Virus record (IMG/VR): IMGVR_UViG_2541047860_000002
Length of the DNA stretch: 64,000 nt
Source of the DNA: a virus
Taxonomy: Duplodnaviria > Heunggongvirae > Uroviricota > Caudoviricetes
Reading direction: 5' to 3' (one strand)
Shown: piece by piece, positions 59,783-64,000 of the stretch
How positions within the stretch are numbered: position 1 is the stretch's first letter
Layout of the letters: each line of letters opens with the position of its first letter
The notes under the pieces: model-generated
Databases searched by the model: none
Told to the model about the DNA's origin: nothing
The model's input: only the letters and a program-made list of their open reading frames with translations
Translations under genes and position numbers: made by a program

Positions 59783-60357
59783 CAGAAAGCCTCCCAGTCA
59801 GTCGCGATAATATCCACACCAGTTGCAAACCAGTCTGTCTGCGCCTGTAAATCCCCATTCATCATTACCAGGCGAGGCATCACCATCACATCGCACCCTT
59901 CCACAATATCGAATGCCTCTTCCGGCAAGAATTCGAAGAGCTTTTCTTTGCTGCCAATGCTGCCACGGAACATCGATATATAGCTCCCTTTAGGCCATGA
60001 TGTCCGCCGGGCATCAAGCCCTTTCATCATCCAGTAAAAAGCCGAGGAAAAAGGGATATTCTTTTTGCCAATGATTACATTATTCGCTTCTGTGTACTTC
60101 AGGAACTTAACTAACCTTACCATTGACTCGGATAACGCAACGTATGGCTCATGATTGATTGCTGACACGCTTACACCGTGCAATCCAACGCTTACCACTG
60201 TCATATCGCCGCTCTGTGCGGTTTCGATATTGACGCCTTTGCGAACTAATGAGGCGTAAAGTTCCTCTCGCTTTTGGGTCCAGCGTTCCCGCTTCCCTAT
60301 GAAGTCACTCAAAATGAGATCTTCTTCTGCATATGCGTTATCGTTCGCCATTAACAT
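59782..60357 (-). CDS. Hypothetical protein
   Basis: 191-aa ORF. Confidence 0.35.
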   Translation of the reverse strand: MLMANDNAYAEEDLILSDFIGKRERWTQKREELYASLVRKGVNIETAQSGDMTVVSVGLHGVSVSAINHEPYVALSESMVRLVKFLKYTEANNVIIGKKNIPFSSAFYWMMKGLDARRTSWPKGSYISMFRGSIGSKEKLFEFLPEEAFDIVEGCDVMVMPRLVMMNGDLQAQTDWFATGVDIIATDWEAF

Positions 60358-60811
60358 AACGTCTCCTTTTTTACACGCGCGACTATCCCCCGGAAGTGCC
60401 GGTAGTGATGTCGTAAATTCGTATTAATTAAGGGGTACAGCCTGAGCGGCTATATGATGAATTGAAAGGAGTTGTGGCGGTGGTGCCTCCACCTGCCAGG
60501 TTAGCCACTCCTGGCGACGTCACTTATCAGAACGTAGTGAATAAAAATGGCTTCGTCACGAGCGCATAGCCGCAATTACCACAACGGAAACGGCGCTCAC
60601 GCTAATTAAACGCCTTTTCCTGTTGTGCGCCGTGCTCTTCCGGCTGTCACACCGAATCGCCAGGATGGTGAGTCCTCGGTCCGCCACTGTTATCGGGGCT
60701 TGCACATTCCGGCTACCTGGTCCGTTTGCCTGAGCAAGAGTCAAAGATACCCCTTTAACGTCACCAGACCGCTAACGACGCATGTGCCAGACGCCGTGTT
60801 ACAACCAAATA

Positions 60812-60887
60812 TGGTGGCCCCTACCGGACTTGAACCGGTGACCGTGCGATTATGAGTCGCCAGCTCTAACCACTGAGCTAAAGGGCC
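60812..60887 (-). tRNA. tRNA with CAU anticodon (Ile2 lysidine-type or Met; resembles enterobacterial ileX)
   Basis: Manual cloverleaf: acceptor GGCCCTT/AGGGGCC, D-arm GCTCAGTGGTTAGAGC, anticodon loop CTCATAA, T-arm ACCGG-TTCAAGT-CCGGT, 3' CCA. Confidence 0.7.
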
Positions 60888-61041
60888 AGATTACTGTTAA
60901 TTCCGCTTACGCTTTTTGCCAGGACCGCGTAAGGCTTTTGCTGCTTGCTCGACCCCATATGCAACCACCAGCAGAAATAAAAATGTCCACCAAGGGTTCT
61001 TGTCGGCAAACGTCCAAAATTCCATCATGTTATCTATTTGG

Positions 61042-61869
61042 TTATTTCACCGGAACAAACGGAACAGCGGTATTACTGGTCATATACTGCGGTAGCGTTC
61101 CGTTCCATTTGTTGATCGCTTCCAACTCCATAACGCCGGGGTTCTGGCGCAGAGCCTCACCGCGTAAACGAATGGCATCAGCTTCAGCCTGGGCTTTTGT
61201 GCGAATGGCATCGGCCTGTCCAGCAGCTTCTGCGCGCAGCATGTTGGCTTCTGCTTCGCGTTGCTTGACTTCCTGCTCGCGTTGCAGAGTTTTCTGGTTC
61301 GCCGTGACTTTGGCATTAATGCTGTCGATAACGGTTGGCGGGTACTCCGGCTTGCCCACATATGAGAGGCTCATTACCTGAATACCGATGGGCGTCATTT
61401 CTTCCTGAATGTCTTTAAGGGCTGCATCAAGCAATTCAGATTTGCCACCGTCGATAAATTTGTCGGTGGTCATTTTGCTGGCTAACCGGTTCAGAGCATC
61501 TGCAACCTTCTGGCGTAGATCGGTATCAGTAATATCATCTACACCTTTGCGATAGGTCTGAAATACCGTTGTGACTTTTGCTGGATCAACCTTGTAGGCT
61601 ACGCCGATGTGGTAACCAATGGTTGTTCCGTCGCTCATCTGGAAGCTGAACGGCTCATCGTATGTCTTCATTTGCTTAAAGGTCGGGAAGATATAAACTT
61701 CAGTATTCAAGCCTGTCCAGTAGCGACCAACGCCAACTACTTCACCGATACCTTTATCATCCCCCAGCTTATTTACTTTGATCCCTACGTTACCTGGCTC
61801 TACCCGATCGCATCCGGTCAGACATAAAGAACCAAAAATAATCGCTGCACTAATCAACGTTTTTTTCAT
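61042..61869 (-). CDS. SPFH/band-7 domain lipoprotein
   Basis: Signal peptide with lipobox LTGC; stomatin/prohibitin-like core and Ala/Glu-rich coiled-coil tail. Confidence 0.65.
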   Translation of the reverse strand: MKKTLISAAIIFGSLCLTGCDRVEPGNVGIKVNKLGDDKGIGEVVGVGRYWTGLNTEVYIFPTFKQMKTYDEPFSFQMSDGTTIGYHIGVAYKVDPAKVTTVFQTYRKGVDDITDTDLRQKVADALNRLASKMTTDKFIDGGKSELLDAALKDIQEEMTPIGIQVMSLSYVGKPEYPPTVIDSINAKVTANQKTLQREQEVKQREAEANMLRAEAAGQADAIRTKAQAEADAIRLRGEALRQNPGVMELEAINKWNGTLPQYMTSNTAVPFVPVK

Positions 61870-62086
61870 TAATCAATTTCCTGGTTTTTTCACGAAAAAA
61901 GACTACTGCAAAAGCCGGGTAAATGAGCGCGAGAAGGACTCCCAACAATACAAGTATTGTGCTGTCAGATGAGATCATATTTGGCAAAAGCCAAACATAC
62001 AGAACCAGTGACACAATCAAACAGAGGACGACATAAATATATAACCGCACCCATAGCGTTCGACATTTGTTCGGATTGTTCTGCAT
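61850..62086 (-). CDS. Small two-TM membrane protein, overlapping start of SPFH gene
   Basis: 78-aa ORF, two hydrophobic helices. Confidence 0.4.
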   Translation of the reverse strand: MQNNPNKCRTLWVRLYIYVVLCLIVSLVLYVWLLPNMISSDSTILVLLGVLLALIYPAFAVVFFREKTRKLINEKNVD

Positions 62087-62349
62087 CCTCTCACTCCATT
62101 ATTTACCGAATAAAAAAGCTGCGGTGCCTGGTGCCTCCAGGTGACGTTAACCAGTTAACAATTAACGCCGGGATGTTTGACTTAACCACTAAGGAGGATT
62201 GTTTTAACTGTTCCGCGTGCGCTTAGCCGCATTCACCGCAATGGTAAGAGCACTTGGCTGGCTGGGCGGCGATGACGCCTGTACGCATTTGGTGATCCGG
62301 TTCTGCTTCCGGCATTCGCTTAATTAGCCAAATACTCTTAACGTTGCAC

Positions 62350-62436
62350 TGGCGGAGAGTAATGGAATCGAACCATCATCGCTTGCGCAATGGGACGGTT
62401 TTCAAGACCGCTTGAGCACCATGCTCCCTACTCTCC
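62350..62436 (-). tRNA. tRNA-Ser(UGA)-like, type II (long variable arm), atypical D-arm
   Basis: Acceptor GGAGAGT/ACTCTCC, anticodon stem-loop GCGGT-CTTGAAA-ACCGT, T-loop TTCGATT, 3' GCCA. Confidence 0.4.
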
Positions 62437-62838
62437 AGTGATTGTGATGGTCGGTGCTGAACTCCGACACAGGGTTGTAGCAAGCCCCGCAAAGCGCGCA
62501 CTACTGTAGTTGCGGCACATCAGCCTGTGCATTCACCACAATGTTGAGAACACTGGTTGTCACGCTGCAACGCAACATTTATTCATAGATTGGGATATGA
62601 CCCCGTTACGCCAGTGTTCTCAACGTTGTGGTGCCGGTTACGGTTCCGGCCAGGCCTCTTCCTCAACGGGGTGTTCTCCATACGGACTACCGTTTATTGG
62701 TCGTTCCTGCGGTTTATGTTGTGAAGCCAGATGCTTATCTTCTGGTTGCTTCAAAGAGCTGCACTTCATCACAACGGTAAGAGCACTCGATGCATTTAAG
62801 CCAAGCCCCATAAGGGAGAATGCCCTTACCTGTTGTGT

Positions 62839-62914
62839 TGGTGCCGGTTAACGGACTCGAACCGCTGACATCCTGCTTACAAGGCAGGCGCTCTACCAAC
62901 TGAGCTAAACCGGC
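62839..62914 (-). tRNA. tRNA-Thr(UGU)
   Basis: Acceptor GCCGGTT/AACCGGC, D-arm GCTCAGTTGGTAGAGC, anticodon loop CTTGTAA, T-loop TTCGAGT, CCA. Confidence 0.8.
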
Positions 62915-62918
62915 AATT

Positions 62919-63005
62919 TGGTGGGGAGTGATGGAGTCGAACCACCCGAGTCGCAATGACAGTAGATTTACAGTCTACCCCGCTACCCCTACGGACTAAC
63001 TCCCC
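62919..63005 (-). tRNA. tRNA-Tyr(GUA), type II
   Basis: Acceptor GGGGAGT/ACTCCCC, anticodon stem-loop GTAGA-CTGTAAA-TCTAC, 15-nt variable arm, T-loop TTCGACT, CCA. Confidence 0.6.
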
Positions 63006-63010
63006 TAAAT

Positions 63011-63087
63011 TGGCGATGGTGGGTGGATTCGAACCACCGACCGACAGCTTAGAAGGCTGCTGCTCTATCCTACTGAGCTACACCATC
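63011..63087 (-). tRNA. tRNA-Arg(UCU)
   Basis: Acceptor GATGGTG/CACCATC, D-arm GCTCAGTAGGATAGAGC, anticodon loop CTTCTAA, T-arm GGTGG-TTCGAAT-CCACC, GCCA. Confidence 0.75.
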
Positions 63088-63547
63088 ACTTGCCGGGTAC
63101 GTCTCCGGCGAGGGCTTCCACCTCCGTATGCTTTTCGGCGCACCGCGCCCTGGCTGCAATTCGGTAACAGGGGATGCACAACCCTGGCTTCCAGCGTGAT
63201 TAGCGCCTTCAGCATGACGGGATATACCCGTAGTAGGATGTTATCCCAGAAAGCCATTAATCAATGGCTGTTACGCGGGAGGGACGTAACAGGTAAGGGC
63301 GCTGACCAGAAAGACCTGACCCTTCTCATTCATCTGGTTAATCACACCAGCGCCCTTGCCTGTTATGCCTCCCCGTTCCCTAATACACAGACGGGGACAC
63401 TCTGCGGTCGATTTTTTGACGGGGGACGACTCATACCCCGTGGCGTCTGGCTTCTTAGGCCGCTACCATCATCAGATCATCGTTTGCATTTACTTTAATG
63501 GTCGGTTTCTAAACCGCCGCAAAGTCGCTAACCATGACGAAAACCCT

Positions 63548-63571
63548 AAAAAAGCCCACCCGAAGATGGGC
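63548..63571 (-). terminator. Rho-independent terminator (minus strand)
   Basis: Minus strand reads GCCCATCTTCGGGTGGGC followed by TTTTTT. Confidence 0.5.
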
Positions 63572-64000
63572 AAATACGCTACATCTCACACAAGAAAGAA
63601 GCCGACTGCCTGAGCTGGATTCACTTTCAAATGCCCGCAGAAAGGGATCACAAGTCGGCTTCTTTCTTGATGCGGCACTCTCTCCGCCCGTCACCGCTCT
63701 GTCTCGGTTGTCGCGTTTGCCACGCCAGCCGTAACGAGGTTTAAAGTCTTTACACGTTTCCATCACTCGACTGCCGTCTGTGGCTGTTCGTTGCAGCGGG
63801 GGTGCCTCCCCCTGGGGATATCCCCGGCCTTACCCCATTCTTTCAAGACACAATGCAAGGCCACATCCGCATAGGTGCATTACCGCAACATTAAGGAGAC
63901 TCAGGGCAAAAGGTAACCGCCACAAAAATCCCTATGCCTCCTTAATGTTGAAGATGTGCATTGATGATTAGATGCAGCATGTACCGTTACTCTCTGCCGG

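What the first reader, a model, noticed from the sequence alone, without database searches (positions are those of the whole stretch)
62232..62792. Repeat family and a partial copy of the tRNA-Thr 3' end in the spacer between tRNA genes
A ~22-bp element (TCACCRCAA..GGTAAGAGCACT-like) occurs at 62232, 62523 and 62766, and an inverted copy at 62608-62630 forms a 23-bp inverted repeat with the 62523 copy. The sequence TGGTGCCGGTTA at 62630 duplicates the 3' end of the intact tRNA-Thr gene at 62839. Partial tRNA 3'-end duplications bounded by inverted repeats are footprints of site-specific insertion or of a decayed mobile or intron-like insert.
Basis: seen in the sequence. Interest (0 to 1): 0.4.

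Follow-up and report, generated by a model that had tools for sequence, protein, structure and literature searches.

The report
Hairpin punctuation in phage tRNA array
The repeats are the two arms of a family of long RNA hairpins that sit between tRNA genes and small-RNA-like modules in a P1/D6-type phage-plasmid; many enterobacterial phages share this layout, I found no description of it, and the arms are also where modules are gained, lost and swapped.

Summary
The 22-nt element occurs four times in 64 kb, none expected by chance, all in the tRNA spacer. The 12-mer TGGTGCCGGTTA occurs at 62629 and 62839.

The window is a P1/D6-like phage-plasmid, and the tRNAs are on the minus strand. Read on that strand, the repeats are the arms of long hairpins ("H", 65-120 nt). 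Each starts within a few bases of the 3' end of a tRNA or of a small terminal hairpin. The H hairpins alternate with three-helix "S" modules built like the prophage sRNA STnc100.

Arms stay complementary through compensatory changes. Hairpin interiors are conserved in Felix O1-like and rV5-like lytic phages with different arms. The same H and H-S units occur in SSU5-like phage-plasmids, Sashavirus, Klebsiella phage MK54 and genome contigs from about 18 Enterobacterales genera (three checked were prophage).

Similarity breakpoints among 68 relatives fall at module edges, so the repeats do bound indels. There is no integrase-type att duplication and no intron.

Best reading: RNA-level punctuation of a multi-RNA transcript. 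The arms also act as short homology for module shuffling. The nuclease step is inferred, not shown. No Rfam family matches H.

The parts
62762..62838 (-). Hairpin H_A. 5' arm 62838-62818 starts directly after the CCA of tRNA-Thr.
   Evidence: RNA fold -34.9 kcal/mol, z -4.2. Model R1 scores 43.8 bits, E 1e-10, against 21.4 bits on the opposite strand. The interior is conserved in Klebsiella phage MK54 and Felix O1, with different arms in Felix O1.
62629..62775 (-). Module S_0. The first ~55 nt form the short S_0 core (closing pairs GUUGUGA/UCACAAC, hairpin CCAGA-AGAUAAGCA-UCUGG). The 3' end is the small hairpin GCCGG-AACCGUAA-CCGGC (62650-62633) followed by ACCA (62632-62629).
   Evidence: Invariant in five P1-type phages. 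The short core also occurs in SSU5-like plasmids, Sashavirus and P22-like phages. The 12-mer is confirmed. The equivalent hairpin covaries in SSU5-like arrays, GGCUGG...CCAGC. The whole-module fold is not significant, z -0.8.
62534..62633 (-). Hairpin H_B.
   Evidence: Inverted repeat of 23 nt, 96% complementary. Fold -50.1 kcal/mol, z -5.3. R1 scores 39.5 bits.
62437..62545 (-). Module S_b. Three-helix frame: closing stem GUGGUG/CAUCAC, 5' hairpin GCACA-GGCUGA-UGUGC, 3' hairpin UCGG-AGUUCAGCA-CCGA. It ends 4 nt before tRNA-Ser.
   Evidence: Alignment of 23 S frames: 91.5% of cells paired, 10 of 19 pairs changed on both sides, 0 of 500 shuffles reach this.
62350..62436 (-). tRNA-Ser(UGA). Absent from P1 and Ro157c2YLVW.
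   Evidence: ARAGORN. Alignment with relatives.
62229..62349 (-). Hairpin H_C, directly after the CCA of tRNA-Ser.
   Evidence: Fold -44.4 kcal/mol, z -3.0. About 60 nt of the interior are nearly identical in an rV5-like lytic phage, whose arms differ but still pair. Missed by R1 under default filters.
62120..62240 (-). STnc100-like S module. Its closing strand UGCGGUG overlaps the 3' arm of H_C, and it ends in CACCGCA followed by a U run.
   Evidence: Rfam RF02076 scores 39.4 bits (gathering 47), E 3.5e-7 in the local search. Equivalent sub-threshold hits occur in P7, D6, P1 and Ro157.
62839..63087 (-). tRNA-Thr(UGU) 62914-62839, tRNA-Tyr 63005-62919, tRNA-Arg(UCU) 63087-63011.
   Evidence: ARAGORN and Rfam.
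63277..63373 (-). Hairpin H_U upstream of the tRNAs (arms UAACAGGCAAGGGCGCUGG / CAGCGCCCUUACCUGUUA).
   Evidence: Fold -53.4 kcal/mol, z -4.9. The equivalent hairpin is present in 36 related loci.
63883..63953 (-). Hairpin H_D (CAACAUUAAGGAGG... / ...CCUCCUUAAUGUUG).
   Evidence: R1 scores 33.1 bits, E 1.8e-7. Also present in D6-type loci.
60579..60628 (-). A further H hairpin about 180 nt downstream of tRNA-Met(CAU). It is followed by a second S module of STnc100 style (about 60586-60474).
   Evidence: R1 scores 22.4 bits, E 3e-4. Fold -32.1 kcal/mol, z -3.8. Sequence read.

Best explanation
The 22-nt repeats are the arms of a strand-polar family of long stem-loops (H hairpins). These punctuate an untranslated array of RNA genes in a P1/D6-type phage-plasmid. 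The array holds tRNAs and STnc100-style three-helix S modules. In P1 and P7 the same array is the leader of the C1-controlled ban operon. Each H begins within 0-4 nt of the 3' end of a tRNA or of a small terminal hairpin, and its 3' arm runs straight into the closing stem of the next S module.

Shown: the hairpins exist. Their pairing is kept by compensatory change. They have one polarity relative to the tRNAs. They are confined to this region of the window. They recur in many unrelated enterobacterial phages. Module gain and loss occur at their arms.

Inferred: the hairpins act in the RNA. Each roughly 20-bp duplex would insulate neighbouring modules and give a nuclease entry point (RNase III on the stem; tRNA-processing enzymes at the adjoining tRNA and tRNA-like ends). 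The transcript would then be cut into separate stable RNAs, each ending in a protective hairpin. The variable, sometimes conserved, hairpin interiors would be released as small RNAs of unknown role. At the DNA level the shared arms (14-26 nt) serve as short homology for recombination that shuffles modules between phages. The 'tRNA-Thr 3' copy' is the terminal hairpin of module S_0, probably derived from a tRNA-Thr acceptor stem.
For: Repeats are real and non-random. Three hairpins fold well below shuffled controls, and further ones do too. Model R1 finds H only between 60.5 and 64.0 kb of the window, with higher scores on the tRNA-sense strand. Arms of 28 H variants: 96.8% of cells paired, 9 of 17 pairs changed on both sides, 0 of 500 shuffles reach this. 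S frames: 91.5% paired, 10 of 19 pairs changed on both sides. G.U versus A.C counts are 36:8 for H and 15:4 for S, which favours RNA of tRNA sense. Every H is preceded by a tRNA end or a small hairpin. Interiors of H_A and H_C are conserved in Felix O1, MK54 and an rV5-like phage, with different complementary arms in Felix O1 and the rV5-like phage. The same units occur in SSU5-like plasmids, Sashavirus and about 18 Enterobacterales genera. One lies between a Q antiterminator and a holin gene. Breakpoints fall at module edges. P1 and the window each equal the L007 type minus one unit, with the junction inside an arm.
Against: No expression or cleavage data were available. The H variants were collected with a pairing-energy filter on the sense strand. 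This inflates the percentage paired and the G.U excess. The outer six pairs of H (CACAAC/GUUGUG) and the closing stem of S use the same GUUGUG, so the two structures cannot both be complete. Sequence conservation of the arms across genera is partly built in by the search pattern. A plain DNA-level explanation, repeats kept alike by recombination, accounts for the indels without any RNA function. An intrinsic terminator-like site (63571-63554) lies upstream of the array, and no sigma-70-like promoter was predicted. It is therefore unclear how the array is transcribed here.
Confidence: 0.55

Rival explanations
1. DNA-level only. The repeats are short homology patches or recombination scars left by repeated module exchange and duplication. 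Pairing of neighbouring copies is a by-product of alternating orientation, with no role in RNA.
For: Indels and module swaps have junctions in the arms. Modules occur in nearly all combinations among 60 viral contigs.
Against: Arms of different H types differ in sequence yet stay complementary. Felix O1 and the rV5-like phage keep the interior and change both arms in a compensating way. Polarity relative to the tRNAs is constant, and G.U exceeds A.C on the sense strand.
Confidence: 0.15
2. One reading: a footprint of site-specific insertion next to a tRNA gene (duplicated tRNA 3' end as attL/attR), or a decayed mobile or intron-like insert.
For: An exact 12-nt copy of the tRNA-Thr 3' end lies 198 nt from the gene. 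Repeats bound indels.
Against: No recombinase gene lies between the copies; the ORFs there are short and hit no Pfam family. The intervening sequence is invariant in five phages. The 12-mer is exact only in 4 loci, with ACTA elsewhere. The hairpin carrying it occurs in Sashavirus with no tRNA within 1.5 kb, and it covaries in SSU5-like plasmids. No intron family is matched.
Confidence: 0.05
3. Integron-like cassette sites. H hairpins are attC-like folded recombination sites (ends ...CAAC and GTTG..., one bulged base) and the modules between them are cassettes moved by a tyrosine recombinase.
For: Imperfect inverted repeats of 65-160 nt with conserved AAC...GTT ends and variable centres. A bulged A in many copies. 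Units are flanked by direct CACAAC. A site-specific integrase gene lies about 1 kb from the array in one SSU5-like plasmid.
Against: The core does not fit RYYYAAC/GTTRRRY. Breakpoints fall at several positions (inner arm edges, tRNA ends), not at one crossover point. The integrase neighbour is absent from the other two SSU5-like loci. The cargo is RNA modules transcribed in one direction.
Confidence: 0.07
4. Cis-acting transcription elements. H and/or S modules act on RNA polymerase, as pause or put-like processive antitermination RNAs, so that it reads through terminators in long untranslated leaders.
For: H-S units sit in operon leaders: between Q and holin in L081, and upstream of holin and lysozyme in L105. 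The short S_0 core lies between PL and the N-like gene of epsilon34. A terminator-like site lies within the leader here.
Against: In L076 the unit lies on the opposite strand between the terminase-like ORF and the portal gene. Interiors are variable. The boxA-like GCUCUUUGAAGCAA of the P1-type S_0 is not conserved in SSU5-like L066, Sashavirus or epsilon34 copies.
Confidence: 0.1
5. Protein-coding. The region encodes Plp/Upl (plus strand, as annotated in P1) or a 44-57-codon peptide on the minus strand, and the repeats are incidental.
For: P1 records annotate upl and plp here. A 113-codon frame is open at 62510-62851 and a 57-codon frame at 62638-62811.
Against: No Pfam family. The 'plp' frame runs antisense into tRNA-Thr. 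Its ends and length change with module content, and a 161-bp insertion or a 1-nt deletion shifts the frame. CRISPRi knock-down of plp and upl in P1 was scored non-essential (PMC10695390), which is uninformative.
Confidence: 0.03

Closest known systems
STnc100 / PasD family of prophage small RNAs (Rfam RF02076)
   Same: The S modules have the same layout as STnc100. This is a closing stem (..UGGUG / CACCA..), then AAU, a 5' hairpin, a variable middle, a 3' hairpin (CCNGG-AGGCA-CCNGG in the STnc100-like copies) and the closing strand. The module at 62240-62120 gives a consistent sub-threshold Rfam hit in the window and four relatives. PasD and STnc100 are reported as related prophage sRNAs near Q antiterminator genes (bioRxiv 10.64898/2026.05.13.724894).
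   Different: Scores stay below the gathering threshold. The commoner S type (loops GGCUGA and AGAUCAGCA) is not detected by Rfam at all. Canonical STnc100 has its own promoter-like upstream sequence and no H hairpin before it.
RNase III processing hairpins in polycistronic transcripts (T7 early RNA, rRNA operon stems, lambda N leader). From my own knowledge.
   Same: Stems of about 20 bp or more with occasional bulges, placed between functional RNAs of one transcript. Copies within a genome resemble each other.
   Different: Cleavage was not tested. Here the hairpin interiors are long and themselves conserved between phages, and the stems share a sequence motif (CAAC-RKURAG).
Small stable RNAs in the phage T4 tRNA cluster (species 1 and 2, rnaC/rnaD). 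From my own knowledge.
   Same: Non-tRNA structured RNAs encoded among phage tRNA genes and presumably matured with them; function unknown.
   Different: No sequence comparison was made. The present elements form a repeated, modular family shared by temperate and lytic enterobacterial phages.
Integron attC sites
   Same: Imperfect inverted repeats with conserved ends (AAC...GTT), a variable centre, unpaired bases and modular cargo.
   Different: The core consensus is not met, there is no consistent recombinase, breakpoints are not at one position, and the cargo is RNA genes.
tRNA-linked pre-miRNA hairpins of murine gammaherpesvirus 68 (TMERs). From my own knowledge, analogy only.
   Same: A viral tRNA or tRNA-like unit followed at once by a long hairpin, released by tRNA-processing enzymes.
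   Different: A eukaryotic virus with no homology. Rfam miRNA hits here are generic hairpin matches far below threshold.

Membership tests
Integrase att-site duplication at a tRNA gene | A copy of the tRNA 3' end at the far border of an inserted element that carries an integrase | tested here: not met
   A copy exists, but the 198 nt between the copies hold only H_A and S_0. There is no recombinase ORF and no Pfam hit.
Integrase att-site duplication at a tRNA gene | Relatives with an empty site that lack exactly the segment between the copies | tested here: not met
   All P1-type loci that cover this stretch keep S_0. Variants differ at other junctions.
tRNA or tRNA pseudogene (for 62629-62775) | Cloverleaf recognised by ARAGORN or Rfam RF00005 | tested here: not met
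   No call by ARAGORN and no Rfam tRNA hit at E up to 10. Only a 5-bp hairpin plus ACCA resembles the acceptor end.
STnc100 (RF02076), for 62240-62120 | Score at or above the Rfam gathering threshold (47 bits) | tested here: not met
   39.4 bits over model positions 31-147 of 206. Relatives score 33-43 bits. It works like STnc100 and looks like it, but is not filed as a member.
RNase III processing site | Double-stranded stem of about two helical turns | tested here: met
   Predicted stems of about 20-26 bp in H_A, H_B, H_C and H_U.
RNase III processing site | Cleavage by RNase III in vivo or in vitro | not testable with these tools
   No RNA-end data were available.
Integron attC | Core sites RYYYAAC and GTTRRRY | tested here: not met
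   The consensus is ACACAAC...GTTGTGR. The AAC and GTT triplets are present but the R/Y pattern is not met.
Integron attC | IntI-type integrase next to the array | tested here: inconclusive
   One SSU5-like plasmid has a site-specific integrase about 1 kb away; two others do not. The window itself was not scanned for IntI.
Dispersed palindromic repeats or MITEs (REP, ERIC and the like) | Copies scattered through intergenic regions of the replicon | tested here: not met
   All matches lie at 60.5-64.0 kb of the 64-kb window.
Intrinsic terminators | GC-rich stem followed by a U run | tested here: not met
   H_A, H_B and H_C have no U tract. The scan flags other sites.
Group I or II intron, or other Rfam family | Match to a curated covariance model | tested here: not met
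   Only far sub-threshold generic hairpin (miRNA-precursor) and snoRNA matches over 62420-62850 at E up to 10.

The most novel reading that the evidence does not exclude
The hairpins are a common 'holder' of a cassette system for non-coding RNAs in enterobacterial phages. Diverse small RNAs (the variable or conserved hairpin interiors and the S-module middles, in some arrays next to a tmRNA-tag-like template) are strung together with tRNAs. They are cut out by host tRNA-processing enzymes and RNase III. They are exchanged between unrelated phages through the shared arms and CACAAC linkers, possibly by a dedicated rather than a general recombination mechanism.
Probability: 0.15. Interest if true: 0.85.

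Novelty: new variant of a known kind. Interest (0 to 1): 0.55.

Why it matters
Phage tRNA clusters are usually annotated as tRNA genes separated by 'spacers', or by dubious ORFs such as P1 plp and upl. Here the spacers are built from a small vocabulary of structured RNA modules with a fixed grammar. P1/D6-like and SSU5-like phage-plasmids, lambdoid prophages, Sashaviruses and large lytic phages all share it.

If the hairpins are processing signals, they explain how such arrays are matured. They would also offer a portable way to express several stable RNAs from one transcript. If the interiors are functional small RNAs, a sizeable unannotated class of phage RNAs awaits study. The arms also explain the mosaic tRNA content of these phages.

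Tried and rejected
- **Rfam.** Searches at permissive thresholds over the region and over relatives gave no family for H, only generic hairpin (miRNA-precursor) and snoRNA matches.
- **boxA/nut idea for S_0.** GCUCUUUGAAGCAA looks boxA-like, and the short S_0 core lies between PL and the N-like gene in epsilon34. The boxA-like part is not conserved in SSU5-like L066, Sashavirus or epsilon34 copies, so I dropped it.
- **Invertible-switch idea.** Related hairpin interiors always have the same orientation.
- **Anchor-based hairpin scans.** Strict CAAC/GTTG anchors missed H_B and H_C and were replaced by a covariance model. Under default filters that model still misses H_C and H_U.
- **Canonical STnc100 preceded by H?** No. 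It has its own promoter-like upstream sequence.
- **tmRNA gene in the array?** ARAGORN finds none. Rfam tmRNA models give only weak hits on the tag-like stretch.
- **Literature.** The P1 genome paper (PMC523184) is not held. Searches for descriptions of these repeats, or for their sequences, found nothing.
- **My own correction.** I first assumed the array leads into ban and that H_D lies inside dmt. Both hold for P1/P7 but not here. This D6-like window has SPFH, Tad2-like-domain and lpa genes downstream, and a D6-type upstream region.

Full report
**What the window is**

The region 62100-63200 matches P1-type phages: P7 and D6 at 92-94% over about 89% of the query, and P1 over 67%. The stretch 62200-62850 is 100% identical to a 74.5-kb plasmid of E. 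coli O39:NM F8704-2. All five tRNA genes lie on the minus strand:

- tRNA-Arg 63087-63011
- tRNA-Tyr 63005-62919
- tRNA-Thr 62914-62839
- tRNA-Ser 62436-62350
- tRNA-Met(CAU) 60887-60812

In P1 and P7 the equivalent tRNAs lie downstream of the C1-controlled ban promoter and operators, upstream of tciA/terB and ban (record annotation). This window is D6-like. Downstream of the array come a small membrane protein ORF, an SPFH/Band-7 lipoprotein, tRNA-Met, a Tad2-like-domain protein and Lpa. There is no ban. I read everything below on the minus, tRNA-sense strand.

**Checking the observation**

The 22-nt element occurs at 62233, 62533 and 62766, with an inverted copy at 62613. That is four matches against none expected, and there are no others in 64 kb. 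The 23-nt inverted repeat is 62534-62556 with 62611-62633, at 96% complementarity. The 12-mer TGGTGCCGGTTA is at 62629 and 62839. The substance is right.

**What the repeats are**

Each direct copy has an inverted partner that begins right after a CCA end:

- 62838-62818, after tRNA-Thr
- 62633-62611, after ...CCGGCACCA
- 62349-62333, after tRNA-Ser

As RNA these give three long hairpins. H_A folds at -34.9 kcal/mol (z -4.2), H_B at -50.1 (z -5.3) and H_C at -44.4 (z -3.0).

I built a covariance model from the arms of 28 H variants. In the window it finds H_A (43.8 bits), H_B (39.5), a copy at 63953-63883 (33.1) and one at 60628-60579 (22.4). Nothing elsewhere reaches E below 0.1. Scores on the opposite strand are much lower. 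H_C and a further hairpin at 63373-63277 are seen by folding only.

Across the 28 variants, 96.8% of cells pair and 9 of 17 pairs show changes on both sides. Examples are GUUGAG/CUCAAC, GGUAAG/CUUACC, AUUAAG/CUUAAU and CAGC/GCUG. No shuffle out of 500 reaches this. G.U exceeds A.C by 36 to 8, which favours the tRNA-sense strand. One caveat applies to both figures: the variants were collected with a sense-strand pairing filter.

**What lies between the hairpins**

Between the hairpins lie modules I call S. Twenty-three of them, from the window, P1-type phages, MK54 and Enterobacterales genome contigs, share a three-helix frame:

- a closing stem, GUUGUGGUG/CACCACAAC
- a 5' hairpin, GCGCA-GGCUGA-UGCGC
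- a 3' hairpin, GCCGG-AGAUCAGCA-CCGGC
- an unalignable middle

In this frame 91.5% of cells pair and 10 of 19 pairs change on both sides. Canonical STnc100 from lambdoid prophages has the same layout. The module at 62240-62120 gives a consistent sub-threshold STnc100 hit (39.4 bits against a gathering threshold of 47). One S, in L084, has a canonical T-arm and weakly matches the tmRNA model ends.

Every H is preceded within a few nucleotides by a tRNA 3' end or by a small hairpin. It most likely derives from a tRNA-Thr acceptor stem, since CCGU(U)AACCGGCACCA is shared. But the CCA reads CUA in most relatives. The hairpin also recurs in Sashavirus with no tRNA within 1.5 kb, and with compensating changes in SSU5-like plasmids.

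**Relatives and indels**

Sixty viral contigs and four reference phages show the modules in many combinations. The tRNA sets are Asn-Thr, Asn-Tyr-Thr, Arg-Tyr-Thr or Arg-Thr, with or without tRNA-Ser. There are one or two H_A types, and a 161-bp insertion carrying a 42-codon ORF sits exactly at 62632/62633.

The commonest array (L007 type) carries both H_A types separated by a module S_a. P1 equals this array minus the segment between the two 3' arms. The window equals it minus the segment between the two 5' arms. BLAST breakpoints over 68 loci pile up at 62252/57, 62443, 62632/33, 62819, 62840, 62944 and 63009, with one each at 62787 and 62788. All of these are arm or module edges. So the repeats bound indels, most simply through recombination at 14-26 nt of shared arm.

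**Spread beyond P1**

- SSU5-like phage-plasmids have a 1.5-kb non-coding array of the same style, with four H types.
- Sashavirus has small hairpin, H and short S_0 between head and tail genes.
- Klebsiella phage MK54 and Felix O1 carry H_A with 27 invariant interior bases; in Felix O1 the arms differ but still pair.
- An rV5-like phage carries about 60 nt of the H_C interior after its tRNA-Ser, again with different pairing arms.
- A junction pattern found H-S units in about 18 Enterobacterales genera. Roughly 17 chance matches were expected among 39 loci, but model R1 confirmed hairpins in 27 of them, including four contigs assigned to non-Enterobacterales.
- Most of these loci have no tRNA nearby.
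- Sampled contexts are prophage: between a Q antiterminator and a holin gene (L081); after tRNA-Ser and upstream of holin and lysozyme (L105); and on the opposite strand between a terminase-like ORF and the portal gene (L076).

**How it most likely works**

Shown: a conserved, polar, covarying hairpin family placed at module borders, and indels at its arms.

Inferred: the hairpins act in the transcript as punctuation. Stems of about 20 bp are the right size for RNase III, and the flanking tRNAs and tRNA-like S frames are substrates for tRNA-processing enzymes. Each upstream module ends in a hairpin that would stop 3' trimming. The conserved interiors of H_A and H_C suggest that the excised hairpins are themselves small RNAs.

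Unexplained: the outer CACAAC/GUUGUG pairs of H and the closing stem of S compete for the same GUUGUG.

**Rivals**

The rivals are a DNA-only role, an att-site footprint, attC-like sites, transcription control and coding. They are weighed in the fields above.

**Comparison with known systems and novelty**

S modules work like, and look like, STnc100/PasD but do not pass the Rfam threshold. H matches no Rfam family. I found no description of it in the searchable literature, though the P1 genome paper could not be read. I rate it a new variant of a known kind (structured processing elements in multi-RNA transcripts), of moderate interest.

Noticed in passing
window 63497-63462 (-); also L067, L066, L071 (MK54), L072 (Felix O1), L091: A tmRNA-like tag template sits upstream of the tRNAs: AAAUGCAAACGAUGAUCUGAUGAUGGUAGCGGCCUAA, reading ANDDLMMVAA*. 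Relatives read ANEEVYLAVA*, ANDNQYLAVA*, ANEEMYLAVA*, ANDNVFLAVA* and ANDDVVLMAA*. Rfam tmRNA models give only weak hits (11.7-26.3 bits) and ARAGORN calls no tmRNA, so this may be a phage tmRNA-derived module without a recognisable tRNA-like domain.
   Followed up: partly
window 60800-60640 (-); L076, L085, L100, L101, L103: A conserved stretch of about 150 nt (GGCACAUG..AGCGGUC..GGUAGCCGGAAUGUGCAAGCC..CACCAUC..GGCGAU.CGGUGUGAC) lies between tRNA-Met and the H hairpin at 60628. The same stretch precedes H in several chromosomal loci. No Rfam match.
   Followed up: no
window 60586-60474 (-): A second module of STnc100 style (GUUGUGGUAAUUGCGGCUAUGCGC ... GGUGGAGGCACCACCGCCACAAC) lies just upstream of the Tad2-like-domain gene. 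Rfam does not detect it at E up to 1.
   Followed up: partly
window 62510-62851 (+); P1 plp/upl: The P1-annotated ORFs plp and upl overlap the hairpin array and run antisense into tRNA-Thr. The frame's ends change with module content and it hits no Pfam family. They are probably not genes.
   Followed up: partly
L004 (Ro157c2YLVW) 1869-2029; L059: A 161-bp insertion exactly at window 62632/62633 carries a 42-codon ORF with a Shine-Dalgarno sequence (MWAFNGIRVV...). A homologous small ORF sits at the same place in L059.
   Followed up: no
L069 (epsilon34) 1500-1557: The short S_0 core lies between PL and the N-like antiterminator gene of a P22-like phage, next to a lambda-style GGCUGAAAAGCC hairpin.
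   Followed up: partly
window 63571-63554 (-): A strong terminator-like site (GCCCAUCUUCGGGUGGGC + U6) follows the stretch that P1 annotates as dicF-like, upstream of the tRNAs. No sigma-70-like promoter was predicted anywhere in 60300-64000.
   Followed up: no
L005 2385-2483 (-) (rV5-like phage phita32): ARAGORN calls an unannotated 99-nt tRNA-like gene with a four-base anticodon between tRNA-Ser and tRNA-Thr.
   Followed up: no
window 62919-63087 and 62350-62436: tRNA-Arg, tRNA-Tyr and tRNA-Ser are about 84% identical to those of 131-140-kb lytic Escherichia phages (rV5-like by my reading) and occur in the same order there. This points to tRNA module exchange between lytic and temperate phages.
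   Followed up: partly
window 59785-60357 (-): A 191-aa protein with a Tad2-like (Thoeris anti-defence) domain lies downstream of the RNA array, where P1 has ban.
   Followed up: no
plasmid OX345635.1 (3264 bp, Salmonella), hit H90: A 40-nt match (97.5%) to window 62201-62240, covering part of the H_C 3' arm and the start of the STnc100-like module, on a small plasmid.
   Followed up: no
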